Of a stretch of DNA of 64,000 nt, positions 15,843 to 56,591 are shown in pieces. Numbering within the stretch: position 1 is the stretch's first letter; each line of letters begins with the position of its first letter. The notes under the pieces are model-generated. The model saw only the letters and a program-made list of their open reading frames with translations, was not told where the DNA came from and did not search any database. The position numbers and the translations under genes were made by a program. This stretch comes from Heterodontus francisci (taxonomy: Eukaryota). The DNA is taken from assembly GCF_036365525.1 (NCBI RefSeq), contig NC_090393.1, positions 54,886,488-54,950,487 on the forward strand, read 5' to 3'.

Positions 15843-15891
15843 ATGACTGCGTGGGTTGGAGTTCTTGCCGTGCTGGTTCTCTGTCTCCACA
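15843..15891 (+). CDS. Ig light chain leader exon (exon 1)
   Basis: ATG...MTAWVGVLAVLVLCLH + A, followed by canonical donor GTAAGT at 15892; phase-1 intron of 149 nt ending TTTCGCCAG at 16040. Confidence 0.95.
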
Positions 15892-16040
15892 GTAAGTACA
15901 GGGCTGTTCAAACCGTCCATATTTCAGCTTCTGATGTTCCACTGATTTATTGTTTACTTAAGTTGGATGGATCCGAATTGCACTCAGTTCTCACTGTTGC
16001 ATCGAGTGTGATTGAACAAAAAAATTTGTTATTTCGCCAG

Positions 16041-16370
16041 GTTCGAACGCGGATGCTGTCTTGACACAGCCAACATCCATCTCAACTTCCCCGGGGGAAA
16101 CCGTAAAGATCACCTGCACCATGTCCGGAGCCAACATCGGAAGCTACTACACCAGCTGGTACTGGCAGAAGCCCGGCAGTGCCCCTGTGCTTATTTGGAG
16201 TGAGAGAGATGGCAAACCTTCGAATATCCCTGGTCGATTCATGGGTTCTGTGGACGCATCGAGCAACAAGATGCATTTAACCATCACAAAAGTACAATCG
16301 GAGGATGCGGCTGATTATTACTGTTATGCAGCTAGTATCTTTGGTAAAGGAACCAAGCTGAATCTGAGCA
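16041..16370 (+). CDS. Ig light chain pre-joined VJ exon (sigma-cart/type I, NS5-like)
   Basis: (S)[25 protein letters not shown]...[14 protein letters not shown]...[42 protein letters not shown] then A|GTAAGT; both V-set Cys, the conserved Trp and the FGxG motif lie in one frame with no RSS in between. Isotype assigned from recalled similarity to shark type I/NS5 chains ([20 protein letters not shown]). Confidence 0.95.
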
Positions 16371-19300
16371 GTAAGTAATTTAGTTACGCTGTACACCTTG
16401 TGATCTTCAATTATCCGGTTTCGATTCTTCTTTCAAGGTCTGGCGTAAAGGCATTTGTGTCCAAGCATTTTGTTCCATTTGCGAAATGTCCGTCGAATGA
16501 TTTATACGAAACGTAACTTGAAAACTATACTTTTTGGTAGATTGTATTGATTTTCGTCAAGTTAAGCCTAAATAAGTGTATTTACTTAAAATACAATAAC
16601 GCAGCATCAGCCACAAAGAGACGGGTAGCCCGTTTGAATTGACTTACTCCAGTGTCTATCGCCCCACTACTGTCAAGCGTTAGAGAAGGTTTAAGATGTA
16701 AAGGGCAAAATCCCAACTGAATTACTGGGATGAAAATCGAGTCTGTTCTGCAACTGAGGGGCAATTAACTCCACTAGATTACCGCCCAGTCTGTGAAGGG
16801 AAAATTACTGCAACTATCGTCAAAGTCTCTGAATTAAGCGGAGCCACACAGTAATAAGATGTTCTCAGCCCTATATTTCACATGAATCCATTATTTCTGT
16901 AGTAACCAGGCACTTGTAGCAGTTTTAACGAGTATTTATAGTACATATGGATTGTATATACAGTGAAATAACTCACACTGTTTGACACGATGCCGATATT
17001 GTAAAAACTCACAGAACTTTACAATCAAATCCGAAAAATAAAATAGTGCAGATGCTAGAAATATGAAATAAAAGCAGAAAATGCTGGAAACGCTCAGCGG
17101 GTCCGGATTGCTAAGGTTTTATACATAAATATTCGCTAGGTTTCTGATGAAGGATTTTATATATATATGTATGTATATAATTTTTTTTAAACTTAACCTT
17201 TTTCCGTGCCATCAAATCGATATATTTTAGTAAATAATGCTTTGAAATACATTTTCAGTTTTTATGTTGTTTATTCTGCATTTCTGCTAACTAAATGTGC
17301 TCATTCGGAAAACTACCAATACAGATAACTGCAGATGTTCGGTCGGCATTTTAAATCAGTCATTCTGCTGTATTACGGTCCAGTCGTCTAGAACCCAAGG
17401 AATAAAGCAGAGACTCCACCATTTGCAGCGGTCCCACCATTAAATCCACTGGAAATTAGATCCAATCATAGCGTAATAGTGTAAATAGATTGGGGGGCTT
17501 CAGATTCGAACTTAATATATATATATATGAGCTGCTAGCAGCATTTGCTCAATAAACCTACGGGATTCCAGAGATTTCTGTCCCAAACTGCTCTGTGTCA
17601 AGGTTGATAAATCCGTGTTACTGCCTGGTCTTTACACCACTTGTGACACTTTTATAAAGTTCTTTTAGCATTTAAGTTATAATTCAAGGGGGACGCATCA
17701 AGATGACGGTCTCATAGCCAATACACTAGATTTCGAACAAGTTCTTCTTCTTGACAAGCTTATTTTGGTGATGCCACTATTATAACTAACGCAGTACCTG
17801 GTGTCAATTTGCAGTCTGCCTGAAAGACTGCCGCTGCGTAAATTATCCTTCCCAAATATTTATTGGTGCTGATCATGAAGTGAAAGTAATAAATACAGTG
17901 TGAAAGGAACAACTGCTTCCACAGAGCGCGAGACATTCATTATACCGAAGAGTGAATGCCCCAGCTTTTAAGTCCTTTTCATTATAATAAACCTATTTTG
18001 TTATTACTTCCGTGCTTGATCGACAGCTTCTAGGGGATGTAAACATGTTGATACAAGTAGTCCTTCTTTTAGAGCTCATTTTTGTGGCAGTTCATCTTCA
18101 TTCTTTGACATCGGTTATATTTTAGAATTAGAATCCTAGGAAGGTTTATTTTAAATATGACTGAAATTATTATCGTAATTGCTTTGAATGATGTTATTGG
18201 GAAATCATAACTTTAAGAATTATTTTTCCATAGCGATCCTTATTTATTTTTGCTATAAATGACTTTAAATATTGACACTGGAGAACATGTTGATTACCAT
18301 ATTTTGAGCATGAAATCTTATTCCGACAGTGTTTTCAAGTTCTTAACGCCGCTTAGTCACAGTCAGAAGGGACAGAAAATTGTAGAAAGGGCGGTTCAAG
18401 CACAGCGGCCAAGAGCAATAATAATTCCGAACATAAAATCTTGGTTAAAGTTTTCCAACTTGATTGAGGAATATTGTGAAAATTGCTCACAGAGGCGGCC
18501 AATCCAGACGCGTAATGAATTAAACAGGCTGGTATTTTTTTTGTGGGAATAATATTTTTATTCTCATGATCCGAGTATTTGTCCTTTCGAAGAAGCTTCG
18601 CCAAAATGATCATGCGTTAATACTTGTGGAATAAGGAGAAAATCAGGGTTAAATAGATTATAATGAACTGATGTAGCCAAAAAACTAGCATTGATACAAG
18701 CACTATTGGCACAATGGCATCCTTGGGTGATGTAATGTCTATAAATCTACGACTGAACCTAAATTAGATGCATTCTGAGTCTGGTGGTACCTCGCATCAA
18801 ATGATTGTCCTTTGCTAATGTGATTATTAAGTCTGATTAAATTCGAGACCTACATTTTCTTAATCAGCGGTTTTAATCCTCAGTCATAGAGTGATAGATT
18901 CCGTGATTCTTAATACTGAAGCATTGAGTGGCCAGTAAGTCAACCCGATCGTAATCCCGTCAGGTTCCATACTTACTGGGCACAGTTTCCGTGAGAGTTT
19001 ATCCGATCTCATTGGTGGCAGCTCGGCAGTTTCTCCAGGGAAACAGTTTTAAGTTGTCCCCGATATTCAATGAAATTACAAGAGCTCTATAGGAATTCCA
19101 CCAACCGATCAATTAGAATATACACTTGCTAAATTACGTAGGGCGGCTATTCATTACTTTATTGAGCCTCGAAATTATGCCCGTTCCTGAGAGATACCAC
19201 TGTGAAACGGATGCGTCTGCTAACAGTTTTTTGGTATAGTTCAAAGTATGGTTATTTGAATTGGACTATGACATCGTGCAATATTCACAAGTCTTTAAGA

Positions 19301-19599
19301 AACGTCATTAAAACACAAAAATGTTTACTCTCAGCCTGTGCAATATTCCTGCAAATAAATATTTTACCATCAGTTAGGTCCTTACAGATATTTTTCCAAG
19401 TTATATTTTTAACTTTCGAAACTGCGAGTCCCATACGTGTTTGCTGAATGTTCTTAAGCCATCATTGTGAAGTATTTCTAATCCGTGTGTACAATTGAAT
19501 GTTAAAAGGTAACAAAAAGGCAAGACTTTGGTTTTCGACAGCCAACATGCGACTCTGAGCGACTCTTCGCTCACTCTTACATTCTTTTCTATTTTCCAG

Positions 19600-19922
19600 A
19601 TCCGAGAGGCCCCTCGGTGTCCGTTCTTCCGCCTGCATCGGATCAAATTGCAGCAAAGAACACGGCGACCCTGGTGTGTTTGGTGAGCGGTTTTAACCCG
19701 GGAGCTGTGGAGATTGAGTGGACTGTAGATGGCAGTGTGAGAGGGAATGGTGTTGAGACCAGTCGGATCCAGCAGGAGACGGACAACACGTTCAGCGTGA
19801 GCAGTTATCTGACTCTGCCAGCCTCAGAGTGGAACTCACACGAGCTTTACTCCTGTGTGGTTAAACACGAGACTCAGGCAAACCCGCTTAAAACAAGTAT
19901 TGCTAGGTCCAGTTGTATCTGA
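19600..19922 (+). CDS. Ig light chain constant exon
   Basis: Acceptor TTTTCTATTTTCCAG|AT (phase 1, matches the J donor); (N)PRGPSVSVLPPASDQIAAKNTATLVCLVSGFNPG...W...YSCVVKHETQANPLKTSIARSSCI*; C1-set Cys pair and penultimate inter-chain Cys. Confidence 0.97.
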
Positions 19923-19973
19923 TTCGAGACTCTTTTATTGACCTGTTATACTCGTAGCAAATGTTTATTTTTA

Positions 19974-20134
19974 AATAAAGTCCTTCTTCAGATATTACAT
20001 GTTTGATTTTAAGAGTAACACTTCAAATCATAACAGATGTTCAGTTTGAAAAGATCCCGCTGACTATAACAGCGTGTTCAATCTGAACTGGTCGAAGCTT
20101 CAATGTAACGGTACAAATACTGCAGAGTAATAAA
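19974..20134 (+). terminator. Ig light chain polyadenylation signals
   Basis: AATAAA at 19974-19979 and 20129-20134; the second is also present in the paralogous pseudogene flank near 41564. Confidence 0.65.
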
Positions 20135-20369
20135 ATTACTTTTGCATTAACTCATGTGCAGTTAGTCTTTTCTATCCGATACCTCTGCACCAATTCGTAG
20201 CCATCTTCTAATTGTAACTAAAGGGTGAGGTTTTATTCTTTGTGATTGTATGGACATTTAGTGGAATCAGTCAGAACAGTGACTTTAGAGACACGACGAT
20301 GACTATTAGTTTGACATTTCGGGGAAAAATCTTACAATATATATTTAAATGCAAATTTGTTTAAATTCA

Positions 20370-21075
20370 TAGTGTAACACTGAATTTACAGCACAGAAAG
20401 AGGCCATTCGGCCGAACTGGTCTATGCCATTTGGTATCAAGTTCAGGATATTAACCACTCACTGGAGAAACACGCTTTTCCTGCATTTTTTATTGGATTT
20501 ATTAGCGACTTTCATGTTTATGGCCCTGGTATTGTATTCCCCACAAGTGCAGCCGGCTTTTCTAAAAATACCATATCAAACACATTCGTACTAGGTCATG
20601 CGTCAAAAGAAAAGAGCCCCAGGCTATTCAGTATTTCCTGATAGTCATACCCTCTCAATTGTGATATTGTTATCGCAAATCCCTTTTGCCCGGTCTTCAG
20701 TGCCTCTATATCCTTTTTGTAATTTGAAGACCAGAACTGTACGCAGTTCTCTAAAATGCTGGCTAACCAAGATTCTGCACAAGTTTAACTTAGCTTCCCT
20801 GCATTTCAATTATATTCCTCTAAAAATGAACCCCAGTGCATAGTTTGCATTTTATGTTCTTGTTAACTTGCGTTGTTACTTTTTATGATTTGTGAATATG
20901 TACCCCTCGATCCCTTTGTTCTTTTGCACCATTTAATCTCTTATTTTCCGAGGAGTATGTGGCTTCTGGATTTCTCCTATCAAAAGGCACCATCTCACTT
21001 ATTATATGGAAAATCCTTCGTCTTTTACATGTTTATTGATGGTTTCATGTATTTTGTCACAGTCTTCAATATTCT
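20370..21075 (-). mobile_element. Old CR1 3' fragment
   Basis: Reverse-strand CR1 tail (CAGCACAGAAAGAGGCCATTCGGCC) and decayed ORF2 end. Confidence 0.7.
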
Positions 21076-21078
21076 TCT

Positions 21079-24000
21079 GGAGTGCACATCCTGTGCTATG
21101 TGGGAACTCAAGGACACTTCCCATGTATAGGAAGTGTCTTCAGTTGCAGCAGCTTAAGCTCAGGGTTTCGGAACTTGAGCAGCAGCTGGCATCACTGCAG
21201 TGTATTCTTTAGGTTGAGAGCATGTTTATAGATGTGGTCACCCCGCAGTTTAACAGTATGCAGGGAGAAAGGGAATGGATGAACACCAGAAAATCAAGTA
21301 GAAATAGGCAGGTAGTGCAGGAGTCCCCCGAATGCATCCCACTCTCCAATCGGTATTCAGTCCTGAATACAGATGAAAGTGATGTTTCATCTGGAGAGTG
21401 CAGCCAGAGCCAGGTCAATGGCACCACAGATAGCTCAGATGTACAGGTTGGTACAAAGAAGACTGGAAGAGCACTAGTGATAGGTGATTCGATAGTTAGG
21501 GGACACGTGTTCAATAGTTAGACACGTGTTTCTGTGGCTGCACAGTGAATCCAGGATGGTACATTGCCTCCCTGGTGCCAGGGTCAAGGATGTCCTTAAG
21601 CAGCTGCAGAGCACCCTGAGGGGAGACAGTAAACAGCCAGCAGTCATGGTACACATTGGTATGAATGACATAGACCGAAAGAGGAATGTGGTCCTGTAGT
21701 CAGAATTTAGGCACCTAGGTAGGTAATTAGCAAGCAGGACCTCAAAAGTAGCAATCTCTAGATTACTCCCAGCATCCGTGTGCAAGTGGGTATCAAAATA
21801 AGAGGATAAAGCAAATGAAAGTGTGGCTGGAAGAATGGTGCAGGAGGGAAGGATTTAGACTCTTGGGACAATGGGACAGGCTCTGGGGGAGATGGGACCC
21901 GTACAGGATTGCACCTAAATAGAGCTGGGACTGAGCTCCTTGCAGGGCAGTTTGCTCACGCTACTGGGAAGGATTTAAACTAAATTGGCAGGGGTGTGGG
22001 AACCAGGAGGAAATATCAGAGAGGAATACCAAGGTGTTCAGAATACTGGGAGAGATAGATAGCACTAGAGTGGGAATAATAAGTTATTAGGTGGAGTCAG
22101 AGTAAGGGAGAAAGTAATAAGGCCTAAATCAGGGTTAATGTGCATGTATGCAAATGTACGGAGTGTGGTTAATACGATTGGTGAATTACAGGTGCAGATT
22201 GACATGTGGGAAATGATGTTATGGCTATAGCAGAGACCTGGCTCAAAGAAGAGCAGGACTGGGTGTTAAATGTTCCTGGATGCAAGATGTTCAGGAAAGA
22301 TAGAAAAGGAAGGAAGTGGAGAGGAGTGGTTGCATTGAGTAAGGAGAATATTGCAGTGCCAGAGAGAGAGGACATCCCAGAGGGTCAAGGATGGGATCTA
22401 TTTAGCTAGAGCTAAGGAACAAAAAGGTGCAATTACATTGCTTGGTGTAGTCTATAGGCCACTGAATAGTAGAAAGGATGTGGAGGAACAAATTTGTAAG
22501 GAAATTACAGAGATATAATGGGGGACTTTAATTATCCAAATATAGACTTGGATAGTAACAGTTTAAATTTCAGAAAGGGGCAAGAGGTCCTAGATTGTGC
22601 TCAGGAAAATTTTTGGCCGTATGTTTCCAGTCCAATGAAAGGAGATGCACTGCTGGACTTGGTTCTTGGGAATGAGGTGGGCCAAGTGGATCAAATATCA
22701 GTAAAGAACATTTAAGGGACAGTAATCATCGTACCATAAGGTTTAGGTTGGTTATGGAAAAGGACAAAGAACAATCTAGAGTAAGAACAAGTAACTGGGG
22801 GAAGCTAAGTTCAATGGGATAAGAATGGATCTGGGATGAATAAATTGGAATCTAAGGTTGTCAGGAAAAACAATAGCTGAGCAATGGGCCACCTTCAAAG
22901 GAGAGATGGTTCAGGCACAGTCAAGGTATATTCCCTTGAAAGGGACAGGTAGGGCAAACAATTCCAGAGTTTCCTGGATCACAAAAGTGATAGAGATGAA
23001 GATAAGAAGAAAAAGTGTGCTTATGACAGATGTCAAGTAGGTAATACAATAGAGAACCAGGCTGAATATTCAGAGGGGAAGTGAAAAAGCAACGAAGAGA
23101 AGCAACGAGAGAATCTGAAAAGAGACTGGCAGTTAACATAAAAGGGAATCCCAAAGTCTTCTATCGGCATATAAACAGTCAAAAGGTGGTAAAAGGAGGT
23201 GTGGGGCCGAATAGGGACCAAAAAGGAGTTTTACACATGGAGGCAGGGGAATAGCTGAGGTATTAAATGAATATTTTGCATCCAAGGAAGAAGATGCTAC
23301 ATAGGCCACAGTGAAACAGGATGTAATTAATAAACTAGAAGGATTTAAAATTGATAAGGAGGTGATATTAGATAGGCTGTCCATACTTAAAGTTGATAAG
23401 TCACCTGGACCAAGCGAGATATTGAGGGAAGTGAACGTGTGGAGGAATTGGCCATAATTTTCCAGTCTTCCTTAGACTCAGGGGTGGTGCCAGAGGACTG
23501 GAGAGTTGCAAATGTTACACCCTTGTTCAAAAAAGGATGTAAAGGTAAGCCCAGCAACTATGGACCAATCAGTTTAGCTTCGGTGGTGGGGAAACATCTA
23601 GAAACAGTAATTATGGACCAAATTGTCAGATGGACAAATGCAGGTTAATTAAGGAAAGCCAGCATGGATTTGTTAAGGGAAAATCATGGTTAAATAACTT
23701 GCTGGAGGTTTTTGAAGAGGTAACAGAGAGGGATGAAGAGGGCAATGCTGTTGATGTGGTGTACACGGATTTCCAAAAGGCATTTGACAAAGTGCCGCAC
23801 AACAGACTTGTGAGCAAAGTTATAGCTCAGGGAATAAAAGGGATGGTAGCAACATGGATATGAAATTGGCTGAGTGACAGCAAACTACTGAGTGATAGTT
23901 GTGGTTAATGATGTTTTTTGGGCTGGGGGAAGGTTTGTCGTGGAGGTCCCAGGAGTCAGTGTTGGGACCCATGCTCTTCCTGATATACATTAATGACCTA

Positions 24001-25340
24001 GACCTTGGGGTACAGGGTACATATTCAAAATTTTCGGATGATACGAAACTTCGAAGCATTGTGAACTGTGAGGGGGATAGTGTAGAACTTCAAAAGGACA
24101 TAGACCATTTGGTGCAATGGCAGATAAGGGACAGATGAGCTTCAATGCGGAGAAATGTGAAGTGATTCATCTTGGTAAGAACAACATAGTGAAGCAATAT
24201 AACATAAAGGGTACAACTCTAAAGGGGGTGCGAGAGCAGAGGGACCTGAGTGCATAAGTCATTGAAGATGGCAGGATAGGCTCAGTGCAATTAACAAAGC
24301 ATACAGTATCCTTGGCCGGAATTGTACAGCCCTCCAACGAGTGGGCTGGTGGCGGGCGGGGGGGGAGGGGTCTGAGTAAAATTGAGTGGGAGGCAGGGGG
24401 CCAATCCCGAACACCTCCCACCCCTGCTGCAATTTGACACAGGGTGGCGGCGGCAAGAAATGGCCCGCCCATCCCAGGCCAATCAAGGCCCTTAAGTGGC
24501 CAATTAACTGCCACTTAAGGGCCTCCTCCCGCTACCACATGTATTTTACCCTTGGTGGCCAGAAGGCAAAGGCCTCAAGATTACCGCCTGGTAAAATCAG
24601 GCGGCCGTCCCGCAGGTTGGGAGGTGCCTTTCTGATTGGGCACCCTGTGCCCCAGAGAGGGATGCCCCCGAAGGCCCAATGGCTCCAACGCACAACACTC
24701 TTCCCCAAACCGGCCCCCTCCCTTGCCTCACCAGGGCCCAGCCAATTATCTCCAGCGAGGCCCTAAAAGCTTATCTGAGTTCCTCTTGTCTCTGATGGTT
24801 GGGTGCAGTCCCAGCAGTGGCCAGCACTCCCAGCGGTACTGCAGGGTTGAAGAGCTGCCAGCTCGCTGATTGGCCAGCAGCTTCATTAGGCTGGGCCTCC
24901 TGTCTCAAGGAGGTGGAAGTCCCACTCAAGCCACCTAAGGGCCTGGGGAGTGAGAAATACCAGCCTGGCTCCACAGGCCCAGCAGAGGCAGACTCACCCC
25001 CAACTTTTCAGCCAGTGGGTGGAGCCTCCCGCCCAACGTAAAATTCCAGCCCTAGGCTTTATTATTAGGGGCATAGTGTACAAGAGCAAGAAGGTTATGT
25101 TGAACTTGTATAAGACACTAGTTCAGCCTCAGTTGGAGTATTGCATCCAGTTTTGGGTACAGCACTTTAGGAAAGATGTGAAGGCATTGGAGAGAATACA
25201 GATTCCAGGGATGAGGAACTTCTGTTCTGAAGTTAGATTGGCGAAGTTGGGACTGTTTTCCTTGGAGAAGAGAAGGCTGAGAGGAGATTTCGATAGAGGT
25301 ATTCAAAATCATGAGGAGTCTGGACAGAGTAGTTAGGGAG
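21079..25340 (+). mobile_element. Near full-length decayed CR1 LINE
   Basis: ORF1 Cys motif/zipper and IGDSIV esterase; APE (AETWL, GDFNYP); RT (DFQKAFD, FSDD); interrupted by a MITE. Confidence 0.92.
24314..25051. mobile_element. GC-rich MITE (Harbinger-like TIRs)
   Basis: GGCCGGAATTGTAC ... GTAAAATTCCAGCC termini interrupting a CR1 reading frame, which resumes immediately after. Confidence 0.8.
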
Positions 25341-25341
25341 A

Positions 25342-27131
25342 GATAAAAACAAGAAATGCTGGAACCACTCAGCAGGTCTGGCAGCATCTGTGGAAAGAGA
25401 AACAGAGTTAACGTTTCGGGTCAGTGACCCTTCATCAGAACTGACAAATATTAGAAAAGTCACAGGTTATAAGCAAGTGAGGTGGGGGTGGGGCAAGAGA
25501 TAACAAAGGAGGTCCAGATTGGACCAGGCCACATAGCTGACCAAAAGGTCACGGAGAAAAGGCAAACAATATGTTAATGGTGTGTTGAAAGACAAAGCAT
25601 TAGTACAGATTAGGTGTAAATACACTGAATATTGAACAGCAGCAAGTGCAAACCTGAAAAAAAACAGTGGGTAAGCAAACTGAACAAATTAAGATGAAAT
25701 GAAATAAATGCAAAAAAGATTGTAAAAAATGTAAAAAAAGAATGTTAAAAAAAGGAAGAAAAAATAACTAAAAATGAAAGTAAAATGGGGGGCTGTCATG
25801 ATCTGAAATTATTGAACTCAATGTTTAGTCCGGCAGGCTGTAGTGTGTCTAATCGGTAAATGAAATGCTGTTCCTCGAGCTTGCGTTGATGTTCACTGGA
25901 ACACTGCAGCAATCCCAGGACAGAGATGTGAGCATGAGAGCAGGGGGGAGTGTTGAAATGGCAAGCAACCGGAAGCTCAGGGTCCTGCTTTTGGACTGAG
26001 CGGAGATGTTCCGCAAAGCGGTCACCCAGTCTGTGCTTAGTCTCCCCAATGTAGAGGAGACCACACTGTGAGCAGCGAATACAGTATACTACATTGAAAG
26101 AAGTACAAGTAAATTGCTGCTTCACCTGAAAGGAGTGTTTGGGGCCTGGGATAGTGAGGAGAGAGGAGGTAAATGGGCAGGTATTACACCTCCTGCGATT
26201 GCAGGGGAAGGTGCCCTGGGACGGGGACGAGGTGGTGGGGGTAATGGAGGAGTGGACCAGGGTGTCGCGGAGGGAACAATCCCTTCGGAATGCTGACAGG
26301 GGAAGGGAGGGGAGGATGCAACTGGTAGTGGCATCACGCTGGAGGTGGCGGAAATGGCGGAGTATGATCCTTTGGATATGGAGGCTGGTGGGGTGAAAAG
26401 TGAGGACAAGGGGAACCCTGTCACAGTTCTGGGAGGGTGGGGAAGGGGTGAGGGTAGAGGTGCGGGGAATGGGTTGGACACGGTTGAGGGCCCTGTCAAC
26501 CACAGTGGGGGGAAATCCTCGGTTGAGGTAAAAGGAGGTCATATCAGAAGCACCGCCATGGAAGGTAGCATCATCAGAGCAGATGCGTCGGAGACAGAGA
26601 AACTGGGAGAATGGAATGGAGTCCTTACTGGAGGTAGAGTATGAAGAAGTGTAGTCGAGATAGCTGTGGGAGTCGGTGGGCTTATAATGGATATTAGTAG
26701 ACAACCTATCCCCAGAGATGGAGACAGAGAAGTCGAGGAAGGGAAGGGAAGTGTCAGATTTGGACCATGTAAAGGTGAGAGAAGGGTGGAAATTGGAAGC
26801 AAAGTTGATAAAGTTTTCCAGTTCGGGGCGGGAGCAGGAAACGGCACCGATACAGTCATCAATGTACCTGAAAAAGAGTTGGGGGAGGGGGCCTGAGTAG
26901 GACTGGAACAAAGAATGCTCGACATATCCCACAAAAAGGCAGGCATAACTAGGACCCATGCGGGTACCCATAGCAACACCTTTTACTTGAAGGAAGAGCA
27001 TGGAGTTGAAGGAGCAGTTGTTCAATGTGAGAACAAGTTCAGCCAGGTGGAGGAGGGTGGTGGTGGATGGGGACTTGTTGGGCCTCTGTTCCAGGAAGAA
27101 GCGGGGAGCCCTCAAACCGTCCTGGTGGGGC
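25342..27131 (-). mobile_element. Penelope-like retroelement, 5'-truncated (RT plus GIY-YIG)
   Basis: ORF 25796-27130 with GVAMGTRMGP, RYIDD, FLD, and GIY-YIG VVYCIRC..CGLLYIGET..RFAEH; 3' UTR with intact hammerhead motif. Confidence 0.95.
25406..25442 (-). ncRNA. Minimal type I hammerhead ribozyme motif (best copy)
   Basis: AGUU-CUGAUGA-A-GGGUC ACU GACCC-GAAA-CGUU-AACU: stem I AGUU/AACU, stem II GGGUC/GACCC, palindromic AACGUU in place of stem III. Confidence 0.75.
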
Positions 27132-27560
27132 GTACTCCCATTTGAAAACAAACAAACTTATTAGCGAGAGACAGCATGGTTTTGTAAAGGGGACATCGTG
27201 TCTCACTAATTTGATTGAGCTTTTTGAGGAAGTGACGAAGATGATTATGAAGGAAGGGCAGTGGATGTTATCTATATGGACTTTAGTAAAGCCTTTGACA
27301 AGGTCCCGCATGGCAGACTGGTACAAAAGGTGAAGTCACATGGGATCAGAGGTGAGCTGGCAAGATGGATGCAGAACTGGCTCGGTCATAGAAGACAGAG
27401 GGTATCAGTGGATGGGTGTTTTTCTGAATGGAGGGCTATGACTAGTGGTGTTCCACAGGGATCAGTGCTGGGACCTTTGCTGTTTGTAGCATATATAAAT
27501 GAGTTGGAGGAAAATGTAGCTGATCTGATTAGTAAGTTTCCGGATGACACAAAGGTTGGT
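27132..27560 (+). mobile_element. CR1 RT fragment (same subfamily as 3181-5117)
   Basis: Near-identical to about 3789-4217. Confidence 0.9.
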
Positions 27561-36371: not shown

Positions 36372-36667
36372 ACCTACTAGTTCCCTTGGTGCCTATCCTT
36401 TTGCCTTCATCGGATCAAACCACAGAAAAGAACACGGCGACCTTGCTATGTTTGGTGAGCAGTTCTAACCCGGGAGCTGTGGAGATTGAGTAGACTGTAG
36501 ATGGGAGCGTGAGTGGGAATGGTGTTGAGACCAGTCGGATCCAGCAGGAGACGGACAACATGTTCAAAATGAGCAGTTATCTGACTCTGCCAGCCTCAGA
36601 GTGGAACTCACACGAGCTTTACACCTGTGTGCTTCAAACAAGCATTGCGAGATCCACCTGTATCGGA
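36372..36667 (+). pseudogene. Orphan Ig light chain C pseudo-exon
   Basis: Collinear with 19600-19922; acceptor TTTGTCAG retained; TGG>TAG at 36491-36493; 27-nt deletion removing VKHETQANP; stop TGA>GGA; no V or J recognised upstream. Confidence 0.93.
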
Positions 36668-47160: not shown

Positions 47161-50100
47161 AATGCATTCATGAGGATGAGAGCAATGTGGATGGCATGTT
47201 TATAGATGTGGTCATCACACAGCTTAAGAGTATGCAGGGAGGGAGGGAATGGGTGACCACCATACAGTCAAAAAGAATCAGGCAGGTAGTGCAGGAGACC
47301 CCTGAGTGCATCTCACTCTCCAACAGGTATTCAGTTCTGAATACTGAGGAAAGTGATGCTTCACCTGGGGAGTGCAGCCAGAGCCAAGTTCATGGCACCA
47401 TGGGTAGCTCAGCTGCACAGCTGGGTACAGAGAAGACTGGAAGAGCCATAGTGATAGGTGATTCAATAGTCAGGGGAACAGACAGGCGTTTCTGTGGCCG
47501 CAGATGTGAATCAAGGATCGTGTGTTGCCTCCCTGGTGCTAGGGTCAAAGATGTCACTGAGCAGCTGCAGAGCATCCTGAAGGGGAAGGATGAACAGCCG
47601 GCAGTCGTGGTCTACATCAGAACCAACAACATAGCTAGAAAGAGGGATGTGGTCCTGCAGTCAGAATTTAGGGAGCTAGGTAAGAAATTAGGAAGCAGGA
47701 CCTCAAAAGTAGTCATCTCCAGATTACTCCCAGTGCCACATGCAAGTGAGCATAGAAATCGAAGGATAAGACAGATGAATGCATGGCTGGAAAGATGGTT
47801 CAGGAGGGAGGGCTTTAGATTCCTGGAACATTGGGACCAGCTCTCGGGGAGATGAGACCTGTGCAGGACAGATGGATTACACCTGAACAGAGCCGGGACT
47901 GAATTCCTCGTGGGATGTTTTGCTAGTGCTGTTGGGGAGGGTTTAAACTAATTTGGCAGGGGGATGGGGACCTGAAGATAGGCTCAGGTGGGACAAAGTC
48001 AGAAGTGAAAATGAAAGGCAGTAACTTAATGGATGAGTCTGGAAGGCAGAGGAAACAAAGGTTAGAAAATAAAAAAGAGAGTTTGGCAGTGCTCAAGAGT
48101 ATCTATTTCAATGCAAGGATTATAGCAAATAAAACAGATGAGCTGAGGGCACAGATAGATACGTGGCAATATGATATAATAGCTATTACAGAAACATGGC
48201 TTAAGGAGGGAAAGGAATGGCAGCTCAATGTTCCTGGCTACAGGGTTTACAGACGTGATAGGGAGGGGGATAAGAAAGGAGGAGTGACAATTTTGGTCAA
48301 GGGAACTATTACAGCTGTGAGGAGGAACGATATGTTGGAAGTTTCATCAAATGAGACTATATGGATTGGCTAAGGAACAAAAAAAAGGGTAATCACACTG
48401 CTGGGAGTGTACTATAGACCCCCAAACAGTTAAAGGGAAATAGAAGAGCAGATATGCAGGCAAATCTCTGAGAAGTGTAAGAACAATAAGGAAGTAATAG
48501 CAGGTGATTTTAACTACCCCAATATTACCTGGGATAGTTTTAGTGTGAAAGGAATTGAAGGAGCAGAATTCTTGAGGTGCATTCAGGAGAACTTTTTTCC
48601 CAGGATATGGCAAGTCCAACAAGAGGAGGCGCAGTTTTAGACTTAGTTTTAGGAAATGAAGATGGGCAGGTGGAAGGAGTGGCAATGGTGGCAGTGATCA
48701 TAATTCAGTCAGTTTTAACATACTTATGGAGAAGGACAGAGATAGAACAGGAGTTAGAGTTCTCAAATGGGGCAAGGCCAATTTTACTAAACTGAGGAGT
48801 GATTTCGCAAAAGTGGACTGGAAACAGCTATTTGAAGGTAAATCAGTGTCAAAACAGTGGGATGCATTCAAAGGGGAGATTCAAGGTATTCAGAGTAAGC
48901 ATGTTCCCACAAAGAAAAAGGGTGAGACGGCCAAATCTAGAGCCCCATGGATGTCAAGGAACCTATTGGGTAAGATAAGGCAGAAAAGGAAAGCTGATGT
49001 CCGACACTGAGAACTCAATACTACAGAAAGCTGAGAGGGCTATAGAAAGTGGAGGGATGAAATCATAAAGGAAAGTAGGAAAGCAAAGAGAGGGCATGAA
49101 AGAATATTGGCAAGCAAAATCAAGGTGAACCCAAAGGTGTTTTATCAATAGATTAAGAGTAAGAGGATAACTGAGGAGAAAGTAGGGCCCATAAAAGATG
49201 AAAAAGGTAACCTATGTGTAGGGATAGAAGATGTTGGTGTGGTTCTTAATGAATACTTTGTGTCTGTCTTCACAAAAGAGGGGAACAATACAGATGTTGT
49301 AGTTAAGGAAGAGGAGTGTGACGTATTGGATGTGATAAGCATAGGGAGAGAGGAAGTATTAATGGGATTAGCATCCTTGAAAGTTGATAAATCACCAGGG
49401 CCAGATGAAATGTACTGTAGGCTGCTAAAAGAAGCAAGAGAGCAAATATCAGAAGGTCTGACCATCATTTTCCAGTCATCACTGGACACAGGTGTGGTGC
49501 CGGAGGACTGGAGAACTGCTAATGTTGTACCTCTGTTTAAAAAGGGAGCAAACGATAGTCCGAATAATTACAGACCTCAGTCTAACCTCAGTAGTGGGAA
49601 AATTATTGGAATTTATTCTGAGAGACAGGATAAATGTCACTTAGATAGGCACAAGTTAATCAAGGATAGTCAGCATGGATTTGTTAAGGGAAGATCTTGT
49701 TTGACCAACTTGATCGAATTTTGTGAAGTAACAGGGAAGATAGATGAGGGTAGTGCAGTTGATGTGGTCTACATGGATTTTAGCAAGGCTTTTGACAAGG
49801 TCAAACTGGCAAACTGGTTAAAAAAATAAAATCCTATGGGATCCAAGGAAATGCAGCAATGTGGATACAAAATTGGCTCTGTGGCAGGAAACAAAGGGTA
49901 ATTTTTGACGGCTGTTTTAGCGACTGGAGGGCTGTTTCCAGTGGTGTTCTGCAGGGCTCAGTACTGGATCCCCTTCTTTTATAGTATATATTAACGATTT
50001 GGACATAAATGTAGGGGGCGTGATCAAGAAGTTTGCAGACAATACAAAGATTGGCCTTGTGGTAGATAGCGAGGAGGATAGCTGTAGGCTGCAGGAAGAT

Positions 50101-50950
50101 ATTGATGGTCTGGTCAGATGGGCAGAAAAGTGGCAAATGGAATTCAGTTTGGAGAAGTGTAAGGTGATGCATTTGGGGAGGTCAAACAAGGCAAAGAAAT
50201 ACATGATTAATGGGAAAATACTGAGAAGTGTAGAGGAAGTAAGGGACCTTGGAGTGAATGTCCACAGATCCCTGAAGGTAGCAGGACAGGTCGTTAAAGT
50301 GGTTAAGAAGGCATATGGAATCCTTTCCTTTATTAGCCATGGTATAGAATATAAGAGCAGGGAGGTTATGCTGGAACTGTATAACTCATTGGTTCAGCAA
50401 CAACTTGAGTACTGTGTGCAGTTCTGGTCACCTCATTACAGAAAGGTAGTAATTGCACTGGATAGGGTACAGAGGAGATTTCCGAGGATGTTGCCAGGGC
50501 TGGAAAATTGCATCTATGAGGAAAGATTGGATCGGCTGGGGTTGTTCTCCTTGGAACAGAGAAAGCTGAGGGGAAATCTGATTGAAATGTACAAAGTTTT
50601 GAGGGGCCTGGATAGAATAAAGGTGAAGGGTCTATTCACCTTAGCAGAGAAGTCAGTGGCATGGGGGCATAGATTTAAAGTGATTGGTAGAAAAATTAGA
50701 GGGGAGATAAGGAAAACGTTTTCCCCCAGAGGGTGTTGGGGGTTTGGAACTCACTGCTTGAAAGGGTAGCTGAGGCAGAGACCCTCAACTCATTTAAAAG
50801 GAGTCTAGATATGCACCTCAAATGCCATAATCTGCAGGGCTATGGACTAAATACTGCAAGGTGGGATTTGAATAGGTGGATCGTTTTTCAGCTGGCACAG
50901 ACATGATGGGCCAAGTGGCCTCTTTCTGTGTCTTAAACTTTCTTTGATTT
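47161..50950 (+). mobile_element. Near full-length CR1 LINE
   Basis: ORF1 esterase 47187-47855 (IGDSIV); APE (YFNAR, ITETWL); RT (DFSKAFD, FADN); 3' UTR. Confidence 0.93.
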
Positions 50951-51019
50951 CTAAGTCTTCAATTGAATCTGTGTTCATCACACTCTCAGCCAGTGCATTC
51001 CAGATCCTAACCACTCATT

Positions 51020-53500
51020 ACCTGGCAAATGAAATTTAATACAGAACAATGTGAAGTGATTCATTGTGATAGGAATAATGAGGAGAGGCAATATAAATTA
51101 AAGAGTACAATTCTAAAGGAGATACAGGAGTAGGGGCACCTGAGGCTATTTGTGCACAAATCATTGAATGTTGCAGGGCAGGTTGAGAAAGTAGCTAATG
51201 AAATGTACAGGATCCCAGCCTTTATAAATAGGGACATAGAGTACAAGAACAAGGAAGTTGTGATAAACCTGTATAAAACACTTGTTCGGCCTCAACAGGA
51301 GTACTGTGTCCAATTCTGGACACCACACTTTAGAAAGAGTGTTAAGGCATTCGAGAGGGTGCAGAAAAGATTCACAAGGATGGTTCCAGGGATGTGGAAC
51401 TTCAGTTGCATGGATATGTTGGAGAAGCTGGGGCTGTTGTTCTTGAGGAAGAGACGATTAAGAGGAGATTTGATTGAGGTGTACAAAATCATGAAGGGTC
51501 TGGAAAGAGTAGATAGTCCACCCATTCCACCAGCCTGTCTATGTCCTCTTGAAGTTTATCACTCTCCTCCTCACAGTTCACAATACTTCCAACTTTTGTG
51601 TCATCAGCAGATTTTGAAATAGTGCCTGTACACCCAAGTCTAGGTCATTAATATATGTCAAGAAAAGCAGGAATCCTAACGCTAACCCCTGAGGAACCCC
51701 AGTATATACCTTCCTCAAGCCCAAAAAACAACCATTCACCACTACTGCTTCCTGTCACTCAGCCAATTTTGAATTCATGCTGCTACTGTCCCTTTTATTC
51801 CATAGGCACTAATTTGCTGACAAGCCTGTTATGTGCCTTTATGAAATGCCTTTTGGAAGCCCATATGCACCACACCAACTGCATTACCCTCATCAACCCT
51901 CTCTGTTACATCATCAAAAAACTCAAGTAAATTCATTAAACATGATTTGCCATTAAGAAATCCATGCTGGCTTTCCTTACTTAATCCACATTTGGCCAAG
52001 TGACTGTTAATTTTTGTTCTGATTTATCATTCAAGAAGCTTTCCCACCACCAACATTAAACTGACTGGCTTATAGTTACTGGGCTCATGCATACACCTTT
52101 TTTGAACAAGGGTGTAACATTTGCAATTCTCCAGTTCTCTGGCACAATCCCTGTATCTAAGGAGGATTGGAAGATTATGGCCAGTGCCTCCAGCATCTCC
52201 ACACTTACTTCCCTCAGTATCCTTGGATACATCTCATCCGGTCCTGAAGACTTATCATCTTTAAGTACAACCAGCCTTTCTGATATCTCCTGTTTATCGA
52301 TTTTTAGCCCATTCTGTGTCTCAACTACCTCCTCTTTCACCATGATTGGGTAGCATCTTCTTCCTTGGTAAAGACAGATGGAAAGTATCATTTAGTACCT
52401 CAGCCATGCCCCTGTCTCCATGCATAAATCCCCTTACTGGTCCCTAATCGGCCCTACTCTTTTTGCTACCCTATTACTGTTTACATGCTTGTAGAAGACT
52501 TTTAGATTCCCTTTTATGTTACTGCTAGTCTCTTCTCATAATCTGTCTTTACTTCTCTTATTTGTTTTTCAGTTCCCCGCTGAACCTTTGATATTCAGCC
52601 TGGTTCTTAATTGTATTATCCATCTGATATTTGTCATATGCACCATTTTCTTTTTCATCCTACTCTCTATCTCTTTTGTCATCCGGGGAGCTCAGTATCT
52701 GTTTGTCCTATCTTTCCCCCTCATGGGAATGTACCTTGACTATACCTGAACTATCTCCTCTTTAAAGTCACTATTACAGACACCACAAAATTTAACCCCT
52801 TGAGTTTTAACAATCGAGAACACAAGAACATAAGAAATAGGAGATGGAGTAGACCATATGGCCCATCGAGCCTGCTCCACTATTCAAAACAATCATGGCT
52901 GAGTTTAGGCTTCAACTCCACTTTCCCGCCCACTCACCATATCCCTTGATTCCCTGAGAGACCAAAAAACTGTCTACCCCAGCCTTAAATGTATTCAACA
53001 ATGGAGCATCCACAACGCTTTAAGTGAAGTAATTTCTCCTGGTCTCCGTCCTAACTGATCGGCCCCTTATTCTGAGACTGTGCCCATGTGTATCAGGTTC
53101 CTCTACCAGCGGAAACAATCTCTCACTGTCTAGTTAGATTGTTGTTCGATCAAAGCATCAAGTGATATGGAACAAAGGTGGAGAAATGGAATTGAGGCAC
53201 AGATCAATCACATCAGTGGCCAGTCTCAGAATAAGGGGTCAGCTATTTAGATGGGGAGAAATTTCTTCACTCAAAGGGTTGTGAATCTTCGGAATTCTCT
53301 ATCATAGAAGGCTGTGAATGCTCAGACGTTGATTCTATTCAAGACAGAGATCATAGATTTTTGGATACTGAAGGAATCAAGAGTTATGGAAATTGGGCGG
53401 GAAATTGAAGTTCAGGTAGAAGATCAGACATTATCTTATTGGATGGCGGCGCAGGCGCGAAGGACTGAAACGGCCCACTGGTGATCCTATATCTTATATT
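51020..53500. mobile_element. Cluster of CR1 fragments in alternating orientation (+51020-51515, -51516-52770, tails 52820-53500)
   Basis: ORF 51152 (RPQQEYCVQFW) switches abruptly to antisense RT sequence near 51516. Confidence 0.8.
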
Positions 53501-54029
53501 CTTAACCATGATCTAGTTAAATGCCTGAACAAGGTCAAGGGGCTGAAATGGCCTGTTGCTCTGCTGTAGATTCTCTGCAATTACATGCAATGATAAACTA
53601 TTTAAATAACCGAATAGCATCACATTGTATTCAGCGCCAATAACTGATATTGATCTGACTTCAAATGCGCCGAGATCTCGAAATGTGAGAGTTGTTTTCA
53701 ATCATAATACGTGGTTATTTTGTCTCCACCTACGATAAACCCATAATGTCTGCGTTAGATTTTTTTTCCATTCAGTTAGCTGCACTCCCCAAGTGCAGGA
53801 AAACAGCGAACGATTTTGTTTCGCATCACCACTGTTGGGAGGTCGAATTGAAAAAATAATTCCCTCACTGACCAGCAGCATCGCTGTGGAGCAGATTTCG
53901 CGAAACTGCAATCTGTCTCCCAAATAACATCGAAATGAACCAAGGTAACGCTGGTTAAACTAAACTCAACGTATAAACGGGAAAACAAACCCATCGTAAT
54001 GCCATTGCAAGGAGAGATGCTCAGATTCT

Positions 54030-54775
54030 CTCTTGTTGGAGATGGTCATTGCCTGGCACTTGTGTGGTGCGAATGTTACTTGCCACTTATCAGCCCAAGC
54101 CTGGATATTGTCCAGGACTTGTTGCATTTCTACATGGACTGCTTCAGTATCTGAGGAGTCGCAAATGGTGCTGAACATTGTGCAATCATTAGCGAACATC
54201 CCCACTCCTGACCTTATGATTGAAGAAGGTCATTGATGAAGCAGCTGAAGATGGTTGGGCCTAGGACACTACCCTGAAGTATACCTGCAGTGATGTCCTG
54301 GAGCTGAGATGATTGACCTCCAACAACCACAATCATCTTCCTTTCTGCTAGGTACAATTCCAACCAGCAGAGAGTTTCCCCCCTGATTTCCATTGACTCC
54401 AGTTTTGCTAGGGCTCCTTGATGCCATACTCGGTCAAATGCTGCCTTGATGTCAAGGGCAGTCACTCTCACCTCACCTCTTGAGTTCAGCTCTTTTGTCC
54501 CTGTTTGAACCAAGGCTGTAATGAGGTCAGGAGCTGAGTGGCCCTGTTGGAACCCAAACTGGGTATCACTGAGCAGGTTATTGCTAAGCAAGTATTGCTT
54601 GATAGCACTGTCAATGACACCTTCCATCATTTTACTGATGATTGAGAGTAGACTGATGAAGCAGTAATTGGTCAGGTTGGACTTGACCTGCTTTTTGTGT
54701 ACAGGACATACCCGGGCAATTTTCCACGTTACCGGGTAGATGCCAGTGTTGTAGCTATACTGGAACAGCTTGGCT
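54030..54775 (-). mobile_element. CR1/L2-group LINE RT fragment (different family)
   Basis: QFGF; ALDIKAAFDRVWH; QGSVLGPTIF; MFANDC. Confidence 0.85.
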
Positions 54776-56003
54776 ATGGGAATATAACGTGCAGCGAAAG
54801 AGCATAAAAATCATTAAAGTGTTGTCTCTACTCTGCTAAGTCCTGATCGATTTATAGTGGGGTGATTACATTTCATAGTGAAGTTTTCAAGAGACATAGG
54901 AAAACTGCCATGTAGGAAAGATGGAAGTCACAATTTTAATATGTATCCATTTCAGCTGGAGAGACACGGACAGGCTTCCTCCTCCACCAAAATCTAAGGA
55001 ATGAAACAGGGTTGATAATCGCTTCTAGGTGCAATGGATTATTTTGTCTAATTTGGATTGCCTTACATTCTTTACCATTGACATTACAACATCAAAAGGC
55101 TGGACACGGTCAACAGATATTTCATTAACTTTTATTATTTTCGCACACTGCAATTGTTACCATCAGCTGCTACGAAATGACCGATATTTAGCATTGCTCA
55201 ACAGAATCTACATTAGTAAAAGCAGAACATCATGATTTCAGTACAACATTGGCAGAGCTTTTGCTGGGTTAACGAGCATAACAGAAAACAATCGTTATCC
55301 TACATTACCATGTACAGTCCAGAAGGTTAACTTTATTATCCATGTTTAAAATAACACTAAAAAGATTTCAGTGTTTTGGGTGACGTTATTGACAACCTCG
55401 TTCGTTAGGAATATTTTGCCTGCTTTATCAAAGGTCTTCATTCCTGCAGTGCGAGTTCCATTTCTGGATTCATTTTCTGCCAGGCATCATCAGTTGTCTG
55501 CCTTTCTGGTGTATTGTCCGTGATCCTATGCATTTGCAGTATCTCGATGTATTTGTATCATTTATACTAAACGTAGTCCCAGCTTCCATTTAATCTTCCC
55601 AAACCGTCGAATTACTGAAATGAGGTTCGGCCTTAAATACTTTTTTTCTTAACTATTAAATCATAACTTCAGGCAGTCTCGCCATTAATCAAGATAGAAT
55701 TCCAATTAAAACTGGCAATGGAAACGTCAGGGAGTGTACACAGACTCTCTAGACAATTCCAGGTAACCTTACATTTGCATAGATGTTGGGCAAATAAAGA
55801 CAGGCGGTTGAACTTTCCGCGGGCTTCCCCCCGTAAGAGATCAGTGGAGCTTCTGGAGAAATGGTAGTAGCAGCGCGGAATTTCAGCGCGGTGTGTTTAA
55901 AACAGAAGCCTTGCCATTATTTATGTCACTAATAAACGTTCAAGTTTGTTGAAGTTTCAACTGGACTCTACTTGGACGGTGTTGGGCCAGTAAGCAGTCC
56001 TCT

Positions 56004-56591
56004 TCACATTGCATTCCGAAAATGTTCTTCTTTCGGTGCTCGGATCGCCTCCTTCGAAAAAGCCTCAAATCTTCTCAGAAATATTATTACAAATATCAGA
56101 AGAATTGCCTGAATGACAATGAAGATGAAAAGCCCGATCTGCCACATCACAGCAAGGCTACAGTACCAGTCCTGACAGGTGGAAACAACTTCATCCTCCG
56201 TTAGATATAAGATCAGTCTGCCCTGGAACTCCGCCGGCGAGGAACATTTTATGTTCTTATATTGAGTTCGGTCTTCCTGTTTGAGAAGCCAGGATCTCAG
56301 GTATAAAATGTTACAATCACAGATCCATGGGTTATTGTCCAATGAAACTAATCTCAGGTACTGCAGAGGGTCAAAGAGGCCATTGGGGATGGAAGATAGT
56401 TTGTTGTTGTTCAATTTGATCTCAGTGACGGTGGCCGCAAAGTGCATGGGAATTGTGCTCACATTCAGCTCCCGACTGCTGCAGTCCATTGACGTCCCGG
56501 AACAGAGACACGTTACAGGACACTGGAAGACCGCCACGGGAACCAAAGAGAGAAACACAAGGAAAACATCTTGCTGTCTCGCTATTTGCAT
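56004..56591 (-). CDS. GP1BB: Platelet/thrombocyte glycoprotein Ib beta chain (195 aa)
   Basis: Signal peptide; LRRNT CPVTCLCSGTSMDC; single LRR; LRRCT NPWICDCNILYLRSWL...CSSPAEFQGRLILYLTEDE (compare human LRGRLLPYLAEDE); juxtamembrane Cys; TM helix; short basic tail. ATG at 56591 is preceded by an in-frame TGA, with a splice acceptor TTTTTTCAG at 56618-56626. Confidence 0.92.
   Translation of the reverse strand: MQIARQQDVFLVFLSLVPVAVFQCPVTCLCSGTSMDCSSRELNVSTIPMHFAATVTEIKLNNNKLSSIPNGLFDPLQYLRLVSLDNNPWICDCNILYLRSWLLKQEDRTQYKNIKCSSPAEFQGRLILYLTEDEVVSTCQDWYCSLAVMWQIGLFIFIVIQAILLIFVIIFLRRFEAFSKEAIRAPKEEHFRNAM

What the first reader, a model, noticed from the sequence alone, without database searches (positions are those of the whole stretch)
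15843..56591. Ig light-chain cluster about 36 kb from GP1BB, echoing human 22q11 (GP1BB/IGL) linkage
Seen: an intact light-chain gene and GP1BB in one window, convergently oriented. Established: human GP1BB lies in the SEPTIN5-GP1BB-TBX1 block at 22q11.2, the same band as IGL. Inference: either sigma-cart and lambda loci share an ancestral chromosomal neighbourhood, which bears on light-chain isotype orthology, or an Ig minicluster was inserted downstream of GP1BB, possibly in the GP1BB-TBX1 interval.
Basis: partly seen in the sequence, partly recalled or inferred. Interest (0 to 1): 0.7.

Follow-up and report, generated by a model that had tools for sequence, protein, structure and literature searches.

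The report
Shark lambda antibody genes beside GP1BB
An intact, pre-joined lambda antibody light-chain gene lies 36 kb from the platelet gene GP1BB in the horn shark, on a chromosome the two genes share in other sharks and rays, which likely ties shark lambda to the human chromosome 22 lambda locus and not to the MHC-related chromosome 9 region where two recent papers place it.

Summary
In detail: an intact L-VJ-C light-chain gene (15843-19922, +) faces GP1BB (56591-56004, -) across 36,081 bp. An unreported broken C exon lies between them. The isotype is lambda (type II), not sigma-cart: V and J are joined in bulk DNA, and the chain is 86% identical to a named horn shark lambda. GP1BB, not GP9, is confirmed. 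The linkage is old. In 12 of 13 other elasmobranchs with both proteins on record they share a contig. In the chimaera, a published gene list shows mrpl40-ufd1l-cdc45-cldn5a-sept5a-(inferred GP1BB) followed 11.5 kb later by 11 lambda genes, mostly facing it, with gnaz, rsph14, top3b and mapk1 within 1.1 Mb. These include published flanks of tetrapod IGL. TBX1 is 8.5 Mb away there, so the insertion idea is not supported. Two papers (2023, 2025) assign this chimaera cluster to the huchr9 MHC paralogue. Their own table shows a two-part scaffold: lambda lies about 10 Mb inside the 22q11/12q24-type part, and white shark and catshark carry the two parts on different chromosomes. Known genes, conserved synteny, and a likely correction to a published argument.

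The parts
15714..15721 (+). Ig promoter octamer ATTTGCAT, 129 bp before the ATG
   Evidence: role as Ig promoter element from established knowledge, not tested
15843..15891 (+). Ig lambda leader exon
   Evidence: joint 15891 to 16041 (GT..AG) in RNA-like contigs of runs X8 and X5
16041..16370 (+). germline-joined VJ exon of an Ig lambda (type II) light chain
   Evidence: DNA-run contig 15500-17080 spans the joint with 0 differences at depth 16.3, against 15.8 in the intron; best single-domain PDB matches are lambda V
16325..16339 (+). five-residue CDR3 (YAASI) at the fused V-J joint
   Evidence: 11 of 138 lambda relatives have a 5-residue CDR3, 124 of 138 have 8 to 12... see full report
19600..19922 (+). 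Ig lambda constant exon
   Evidence: joint 16370 to 19600 (GT..AG) in X7, X8, X5; 94% identical to the C of named horn shark lambda WKK30313.1
19974..19979 (+). candidate polyadenylation signal AATAAA
19923..56003 (.). repeat-rich interval; 48% covered by repeats that recur inside the window; holds reverse-transcriptase-like ORFs
   Evidence: element family names (CR1-like, Penelope-like) recalled from motifs, not tested
36372..36667 (+). orphan lambda C pseudo-exon (in-frame TAG, 27-bp deletion removing the second-Cys-flanking stretch, stop codon lost); no V found
56004..56591 (-). GP1BB coding sequence, 195 aa, single coding exon

Best explanation
The window holds one intact, germline-joined lambda light-chain minicluster and a broken second C exon facing GP1BB, and this is likely the GP1BB-proximal end of the tandem lambda array in a gene order likely inherited from the ancestor of cartilaginous fish. 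Shown: the gene is V-J joined in bulk DNA, so it needs no RAG rearrangement, and contigs of RNA-like runs splice it L to VJ to C. From established knowledge of the isotype, not tested here: an octamer promoter drives it in B cells and diversity comes from the several clusters and somatic hypermutation. Inferred: the array sits in the ancestral linkage block that became human 22q11-12/12q24, so chondrichthyan lambda is the positional orthologue of tetrapod IGL. Inferred: the closeness to GP1BB is conserved gene order without functional coupling. Inferred: the published link of this array to the huchr9 MHC paralogue comes from a fusion or misjoin particular to one chimaera scaffold.
For: Isotype: 86% identity over 211 aa to horn shark lambda WKK30313.1 and 82% to sandbar shark lambda AAC59643.1. 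All lambda genes are germline-joined and horn shark sigma-2 genes are split (PMC5192425). Pristis relatives XP_051887749/750 are next to XP_051887747, which PMC12227049 uses as IgL lambda. GP1BB: 42 of 51 hits are named GP1BB, 0 of 51 GP9; PDB E 7.6e-16 to GP1BB against 2.9e-4 to GP9. Chimaera scaffold NW_024704749.1: sept5a(+), a 1.6-kb gene LOC103188591(+), then 11 IgL lambda genes from 11.5 kb on, the first 10 on minus; mrpl40 0.24 Mb, top3b 0.69 Mb, gnaz 0.90 Mb away. Tetrapod IGL is flanked by MRPL40/HIRA and GNAZ/RTDR1 (PMC4762898). Gar and sterlet lambda lie by IFT81 (PMC5985310), which is on the same part of the chimaera scaffold at 7.49 Mb. No MHCpara-9 label in the rows for 0-16.8 Mb; the first row flagged 'in reedfish chr9' is at 13.14 Mb. 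White shark huchr9 markers run to 170.96 Mb on chr8, longer than the 146.98-Mb lambda chromosome; catshark chr21 is 71.0 Mb against 313.6 Mb.
Against: LOC103188591 carries no name in the list; calling it GP1BB rests on its place 4.8 kb behind sept5a and on the recalled human order. Contig-length matches give chromosome-level linkage only. Accession order is an indirect guide: 3 of 9 species show gaps of 64, 405 and 781 numbers. No tree with labelled sigma-cart, kappa or sigma sequences was built. All IGL-flank genes lie on one side of the chimaera array, unlike human and Xenopus. The same supplement lists 2 genes labelled IgL lambda on the lungfish chromosome that carries huchr9 markers, 2 lambda-variable-like genes and a gene auto-named TBX1 on reedfish chr9; these labels were not checked, and NCBI also names UrIg2 and sigma-prime genes lambda-like. 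The reads come from one sample that may be the source of the window, and their RNA status is a guess. The 36-kb interval itself was not tested with reads.
Confidence: 0.8

Rival explanations
1. The chimaera scaffold keeps an ancestral jawed-vertebrate chromosome that joined the huchr9 MHC paralogue to the 22q11/12q24 block. Sharks and bony vertebrates split it later, so lambda does descend from the proto-MHC/antigen-receptor region, as PMC10751288 and PMC12227049 argue.
For: Lambda genes and BRD3, RXRA, NOTCH1, PBX3, C5, PSMB7 are on one scaffold. Lambda-labelled genes occur on lungfish and reedfish chromosomes that carry huchr9 markers.
Against: The two gene sets do not interleave: the switch falls between ficd (13.05 Mb) and rgs3a (13.14 Mb), about 10 Mb from the array. 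White shark and catshark carry them on different chromosomes. ift81 occurs once in the whole supplement, only on the chimaera scaffold, so it is not on the listed reedfish or lungfish chromosomes.
Confidence: 0.13
2. The adjacency is kept by selection: GP1BB (thrombocytes) and lambda (B cells) share a blood-cell enhancer or chromatin domain. This can hold alongside the best explanation.
For: Adjacency appears kept across sharks, rays and, by inference, chimaera. GATA- and ETS-like motifs lie 5' of the GP1BB coding exon; such short motifs are expected by chance.
Against: The interval is about half repeats, the Ig piece nearest GP1BB is a pseudo-exon, the spacing differs threefold from chimaera, and long runs of gene order are kept all along the chimaera scaffold. 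Human GP1BB and IGL are megabases apart (recalled).
Confidence: 0.08
3. A light-chain minicluster was inserted next to GP1BB in this lineage, in the GP1BB-TBX1 interval, or the assembly is misjoined here.
For: The interval is rich in retroelements and was not bridged with reads.
Against: Same contig in 12 of 13 other elasmobranchs; next-number accessions in basking shark; same order and orientation in the chimaera list; tbx1 is 8.5 Mb away there.
Confidence: 0.03
4. The gene is sigma-cart (type I), so sigma-cart and lambda loci share an ancestral neighbourhood.
For: None found. Germline-joined sigma-cart genes exist in skates and nurse shark, so joining alone does not exclude it.
Against: 86% and 82% identity to named lambda chains, where C domains of different isotypes share at most 49% in sterlet. 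Horn shark type I genes are split. White shark sigma-prime is on chr27 with IgH/TCR.
Confidence: 0.02

Closest known systems
Cartilaginous-fish Ig lambda (type II, NS3) germline-joined light-chain clusters
   Same: L-VJ-C minicluster, V-J joined in frame without RSS, 80-86% identity to named sandbar and horn shark lambda chains.
   Different: Nothing of kind. CDR3 is 5 residues where most relatives have 8-12. The protein is already in RefSeq as an automatic 'lambda-1 light chain-like' model.
Tetrapod IGL locus flanked by MRPL40/HIRA and GNAZ/RTDR1 (PMC4762898)
   Same: mrpl40, gnaz and rsph14 (RTDR1; synonym recalled) lie within 1.1 Mb of the chimaera lambda array.
   Different: Tetrapod IGL is a rearranging translocon; the flanks are on both sides in human and Xenopus. 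In the chimaera both lie on one side and the immediate neighbour is the SEPT5-GP1BB pair.
Human SEPTIN5-GP1BB-TBX1 block at 22q11.2 (order recalled)
   Same: cdc45-cldn5-sept5-(GP1BB) order kept in the chimaera list; tbx1-gnb1l-txnrd2-comt-arvcf-tango2-dgcr8 is a second intact run.
   Different: In the chimaera the two runs are 8.5 Mb apart and lambda, not TBX1, follows GP1BB.
'IgL lambda in the huchr9 MHC paralogue' (PMC10751288, repeated in PMC12227049)
   Same: The same chimaera genes: its lambda proteins (69-70% identical to the window's chain) are on a 24,702,275-bp contig, and the scaffold's last gene ends at 24,701,768.
   Different: Their neighbours are 22q11/12q24-type genes. Of five huchr9 markers searched the nearest is 16 Mb away.

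Membership tests
Ig lambda (type II/NS3) of cartilaginous fish | V and J joined in frame in the germline, no RSS | tested here: met
   DNA contig spans the joint at bulk depth (sample may be the window's source)
Ig lambda (type II/NS3) of cartilaginous fish | single L-VJ-C minicluster, spliced | tested here: met
   both joints in RNA-like contigs, one 444-nt contig identical over VJ and the start of C
Ig lambda (type II/NS3) of cartilaginous fish | high identity to chains named lambda by depositors | tested here: met
   86% to WKK30313.1, 82% to AAC59643.1 over 211 aa; C 94%
Ig lambda (type II/NS3) of cartilaginous fish | groups with lambda in a tree that holds labelled kappa, sigma and sigma-cart | not tested
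   no labelled sequence of the other isotypes was returned; the trees hold lambda-family rows only
Ig sigma-cart (type I/NS5/sigma-2) | split V and J with RSS in the horn shark | tested here: not met
   joined, no RSS; feature from PMC2193156 and PMC5192425
Ig sigma-cart (type I/NS5/sigma-2) | location in the IgH/TCR alpha-delta complex (white shark chr27) | tested here: inconclusive
   white shark relatives lie on a 146.98-Mb chromosome with GP1BB; the length of chr27 was not seen, so a different chromosome is inferred
GP1BB | signal peptide, one LRR between N- and C-caps, membrane helix; best match to GP1BB over GP9 | tested here: met
GP1BB | directly 3' of SEPTIN5 | tested here: inconclusive
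   no septin-like exon seen in 56640-59220 or 63250-64000 (by eye); beyond the window not readable; in chimaera inferred for LOC103188591
Tetrapod IGL syntenic block | MRPL40/HIRA and GNAZ/RTDR1 near the lambda genes | tested here: met
   met in the chimaera gene list for mrpl40, gnaz, rsph14; hira is not named there; not testable in the horn shark
huchr9 MHC paralogous region | lambda genes lie among BRD3, RXRA, NOTCH1, PBX3, PSMB7, C5 and on their chromosome in elasmobranchs | tested here: not met
   16 Mb or more away and beyond a sharp switch of gene content in chimaera; different chromosome in 2 of 3 elasmobranchs listed, sawfish undecided

The most novel reading that the evidence does not exclude
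Ig lambda has stayed in one linkage block (human 22q11-12/12q24 type) since the last common ancestor of jawed vertebrates, with SEPT5-GP1BB as its neighbour throughout cartilaginous fish. The published chimaera evidence that lambda lies in the huchr9 MHC paralogue is then an artefact of one fused or misjoined scaffold, and lambda left the proto-MHC/antigen-receptor complex before cartilaginous and bony fish split.
Probability: 0.7. Interest if true: 0.6.

Novelty: new member of a known kind. Interest (0 to 1): 0.48.

Why it matters
Orthology of light-chain isotypes rests on trees that resolve C-kappa and C-lambda poorly (PMC5985310), and the 2026 VGP survey left cartilaginous-fish light chains unlabelled (PMC13320880). 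A fixed neighbour such as SEPT5-GP1BB gives a tree-independent marker for lambda in any shark, ray or chimaera genome and links it to tetrapod IGL. It also removes, if confirmed, one of the supports given for the origin of antigen receptors on the huchr9 MHC paralogue. It does not touch their other supports (UrIg, UrIg2, reedfish, lungfish). The genes themselves are ordinary.

Tried and rejected
No whole genome is held for the window, so flanks could not be read. Ten paper searches listed no paper that states a shark lambda-GP1BB or lambda-22q11 synteny; the search for GP1BB + immunoglobulin light chain + shark gave 0 papers. The library lacks most subscription papers, and Criscitiello and Flajnik 2007 and Ohta 2019 were not held, so absence from print is not shown. 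A C-domain search meant to bring in other isotypes listed 120 of 152 hits, all 71% or more identical; no isotype tree was possible. The PDB search with the C exon was dominated by multi-domain heavy chains and was uninformative. One origin of all 5-residue-CDR3 genes was tested on V frameworks and rejected: AU p 1.2e-4 for 8 elasmobranch rows, 9.1e-8 with the chimaera row (52 of 137 rows used, 2 near-identical chimaera rows left out, 91 columns only). A V remnant for the orphan C exon: none by tblastn or profile search. Rfam: 0 matches. The run search listed no holder on record as RNA. Scyliorhinus torazame has GP1BB and lambda on different short contigs (41 kb; 202 and 663 kb) and is the miss in the 12 of 13. 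Rhincodon and Chiloscyllium plagiosum returned GP1BB only; catshark and three skates returned lambda only; sawshark, spiny dogfish and sandbar shark had no contig lengths; these were left out of the count. Earlier findings of the scan: three look-ups, nothing.
Full report
Observation. The window has no N. A light-chain gene lies on +: octamer at 15714, leader exon 15843-15891, fused VJ exon 16041-16370, C exon 19600-19922, AATAAA at 19974. The exons give a 233-aa chain without stops. GP1BB is one 195-codon frame on -, 56591-56004. The two stops are 36,081 bp apart; 48% of the interval is covered by repeats that recur inside the window. No V was found for it.

Germline joining and splicing. No 12- or 23-spacer RSS was found. 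In a DNA run one contig covers 15500-17080, across the V-J joint, with no difference and the same depth as the intron (16.3 against 15.8), so the joined form is the bulk form and not a B-cell clone. Three RNA-like runs show the 16370-19600 joint and two of the three show the 15891-16041 joint, both GT..AG; one 444-nt contig is identical to this gene over VJ and the start of C. Limits: all four runs are one sample that may be the window's source, RNA status is a guess, and only 4.8 kb was laid.

Isotype. The chain is 86% identical over 211 aa to WKK30313.1, deposited as horn shark lambda light chain, and 82% to sandbar shark lambda AAC59643.1. C is 94% identical to that of WKK30313.1. Sterlet C domains of different loci share at most 49% (PMC5985310). 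[quoted passage not shown] Sawfish relatives XP_051887749 and 750 are numbered next to XP_051887747, which PMC12227049 uses as IgL lambda, while its sigma and sigma-2 chains have distant numbers. The best single-domain PDB matches of the V are lambda chains. Automatic NCBI names do not fix the isotype: UrIg2 and sigma-prime are also named lambda-like. A tree with labelled outgroup isotypes could not be built.

GP1BB. Of 51 hits, 42 are named GP1BB by a source and 0 GP9. The C-terminal 108 aa match human GP1BB at E 7.6e-16 and GP9 at 2.9e-4.

Linkage in elasmobranchs. For 13 other species both a GP1BB and a lambda protein came with a contig length. In 12 the lengths are equal: Heptranchias, Carcharodon, Cetorhinus, Mustelus, Hemiscyllium, Chiloscyllium punctatum, Pristis, Narcine, Mobula birostris, M. 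hypostoma, Hypanus, Hemitrygon. The miss is a fragmented Scyliorhinus torazame draft. RefSeq numbers were looked up for 9 species, 1 to 2 lambda proteins each. The gap to GP1BB is 1 (Cetorhinus), 3 (Narcine), 5 (Heptranchias), 6 (Hemitrygon), 9 (Hemiscyllium), 24 (M. birostris), 64 (Carcharodon), 405 (Pristis) and 781 (Mustelus). That close numbers mean neighbouring genes is an inference; numbering is not strictly positional.

Chimaera. Supplementary file 9 of PMC10751288 lists the genes of Callorhinchus scaffold NW_024704749.1. Its last gene ends at 24,701,768, matching the 24,702,275-bp contig of the chimaera lambda proteins that my searches returned. The order is rsph14, gnaz, rab36, top3b, ppm1f, mapk1, ypel1, ppil2, mrpl40, c22orf39, ufd1l, cdc45, cldn5a, sept5a (+, ends 2,876,096), LOC103188591 (+, 2,880,866-2,882,473), then 11 genes labelled IgL lambda from 2,893,968 to 3,153,971 (first 10 on minus), then rplp0. 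I infer that LOC103188591 is GP1BB from its place behind sept5a (human order recalled); the list has no gene named gp1bb. If so, orientation is convergent as in the window, at 11.5 kb. tbx1 is at 11.63 Mb, after cltcl1. Tetrapod lambda loci are flanked by MRPL40/HIRA and GNAZ/RTDR1 (PMC4762898), and gar and sterlet lambda lie by IFT81 (PMC5985310), which is at 7.49 Mb on this scaffold. Human positions of these genes on 22q11-12 and 12q24 are recalled.

Conflict with print. PMC10751288 takes this scaffold as evidence that lambda belongs to a linked huchr9/12/14 MHC paralogue, and PMC12227049 repeats that a lambda cluster is in the huchr9 paralogue, citing it. In the rows I read for 0-16.8 Mb there is no MHCpara-9 label, and the first row flagged 'in reedfish chr9' is rgs3a at 13.14 Mb, right after ficd at 13.05 Mb. 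BRD3, RXRA, NOTCH1, PBX3 and PSMB7 lie at 19.2-24.0 Mb. Part 94 (16.8-20.1 Mb) was searched but not read. In their table S1 the white shark huchr9 markers reach 170.96 Mb on chr8, which cannot be the 146.98-Mb lambda chromosome, and catshark chr21 is 71.0 Mb against 313.6 Mb for its lambda contig; sawfish is undecided. The simplest reading is a fusion or misjoin in the chimaera scaffold. Against this: genes labelled lambda also appear on the lungfish and reedfish chromosomes with huchr9 markers, and a gene auto-named TBX1 on reedfish chr9; none of these labels was checked.

How it works. Shown: joined VJ, intact frame, splicing in one sample. Established for the isotype, not tested: octamer-driven B-cell expression without RAG rearrangement, diversity from several clusters and hypermutation. 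Inferred: the window is the GP1BB-proximal end of the lambda array, with the outermost cluster decayed to a C remnant; the closeness to GP1BB is inherited gene order with no functional coupling.

Short CDR3. Among 138 lambda-family proteins, CDR3 lengths are 5 (11), 6 (2), 8 (26), 9 (52), 11 (36), 12 (10), 13 (1). The 5-residue form occurs in 8 of 23 species, among them galeomorph and squalomorph sharks, a sawfish and the chimaera; none of the 11 starts with A or G, against 117 of 127 others. The window's V groups with four other 5-residue genes and one 9-residue gene at 96/85 support, but one clade of all of them is rejected. Shared origin with gene conversion and repeated origin both remain open.

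Papers seen. PMC10751288: passages, section 12, supplement parts 90-93, 95, 96 of 98 and searches. PMC12227049: passages, section 15, searches of both supplements. PMC5985310: abstract and passages. PMC4762898, PMC5192425, PMC2193156, PMC4279169, PMC9614664, PMC13320880: passages only; their supplements were not opened, and the VGP locus table could bear on novelty. Criscitiello and Flajnik 2007 and Ohta 2019: not held, not seen. Ten searches listed no statement of this synteny.

Verdict. Real, conserved synteny of known genes. Interest 0.48, carried mostly by the likely correction of a published placement of lambda.

Noticed in passing
window 36372-36667: Orphan lambda C pseudo-exon with its splice acceptor kept, a TAG stop and a 27-bp deletion; no V found upstream. 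The flanking 33.5-36.4 kb is largely non-repeat and CpG-rich like the intact cluster's intron but does not align to it.
   Followed up: yes
window 16325-16339: Five-residue germline CDR3. The same length occurs in 11 of 138 relatives from 8 of 23 species; sandbar shark and sawfish share an identical one. V frameworks do not form one clade.
   Followed up: partly
   Followed up: partly
Callorhinchus scaffold NW_024704749.1, 13.05-13.14 Mb (supplement of PMC10751288): Sharp switch from 22q11/12q24-type to huchr9-type genes between ficd and rgs3a, a candidate fusion point or misjoin.
   Followed up: partly
Callorhinchus scaffold NW_024704749.1, 2.6-2.9 Mb and 11.5-12.0 Mb: The human DiGeorge-region genes fall in two intact runs 8.5 Mb apart: mrpl40 to sept5a, and cltcl1-tbx1 to zdhhc8b.
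   Followed up: no
window 25796-27157 (-): 453-aa open frame with reverse-transcriptase-like and GIY-YIG-like motifs, resembling a Penelope-type element (motifs recalled, not scanned); decayed copies at 31.0-32.0 kb.
   Followed up: no
window 59200-63280: Long retroelement 5' of GP1BB with open frames of 604 and 310 aa on minus, resembling a CR1-type LINE (name recalled).
   Followed up: no
window 57523-57698 (-): A GTAAGT donor-like site at 57698 and GATA/ETS-like motifs, and an acceptor just before 56617, suggest a non-coding first exon of GP1BB; not tested.
   Followed up: no
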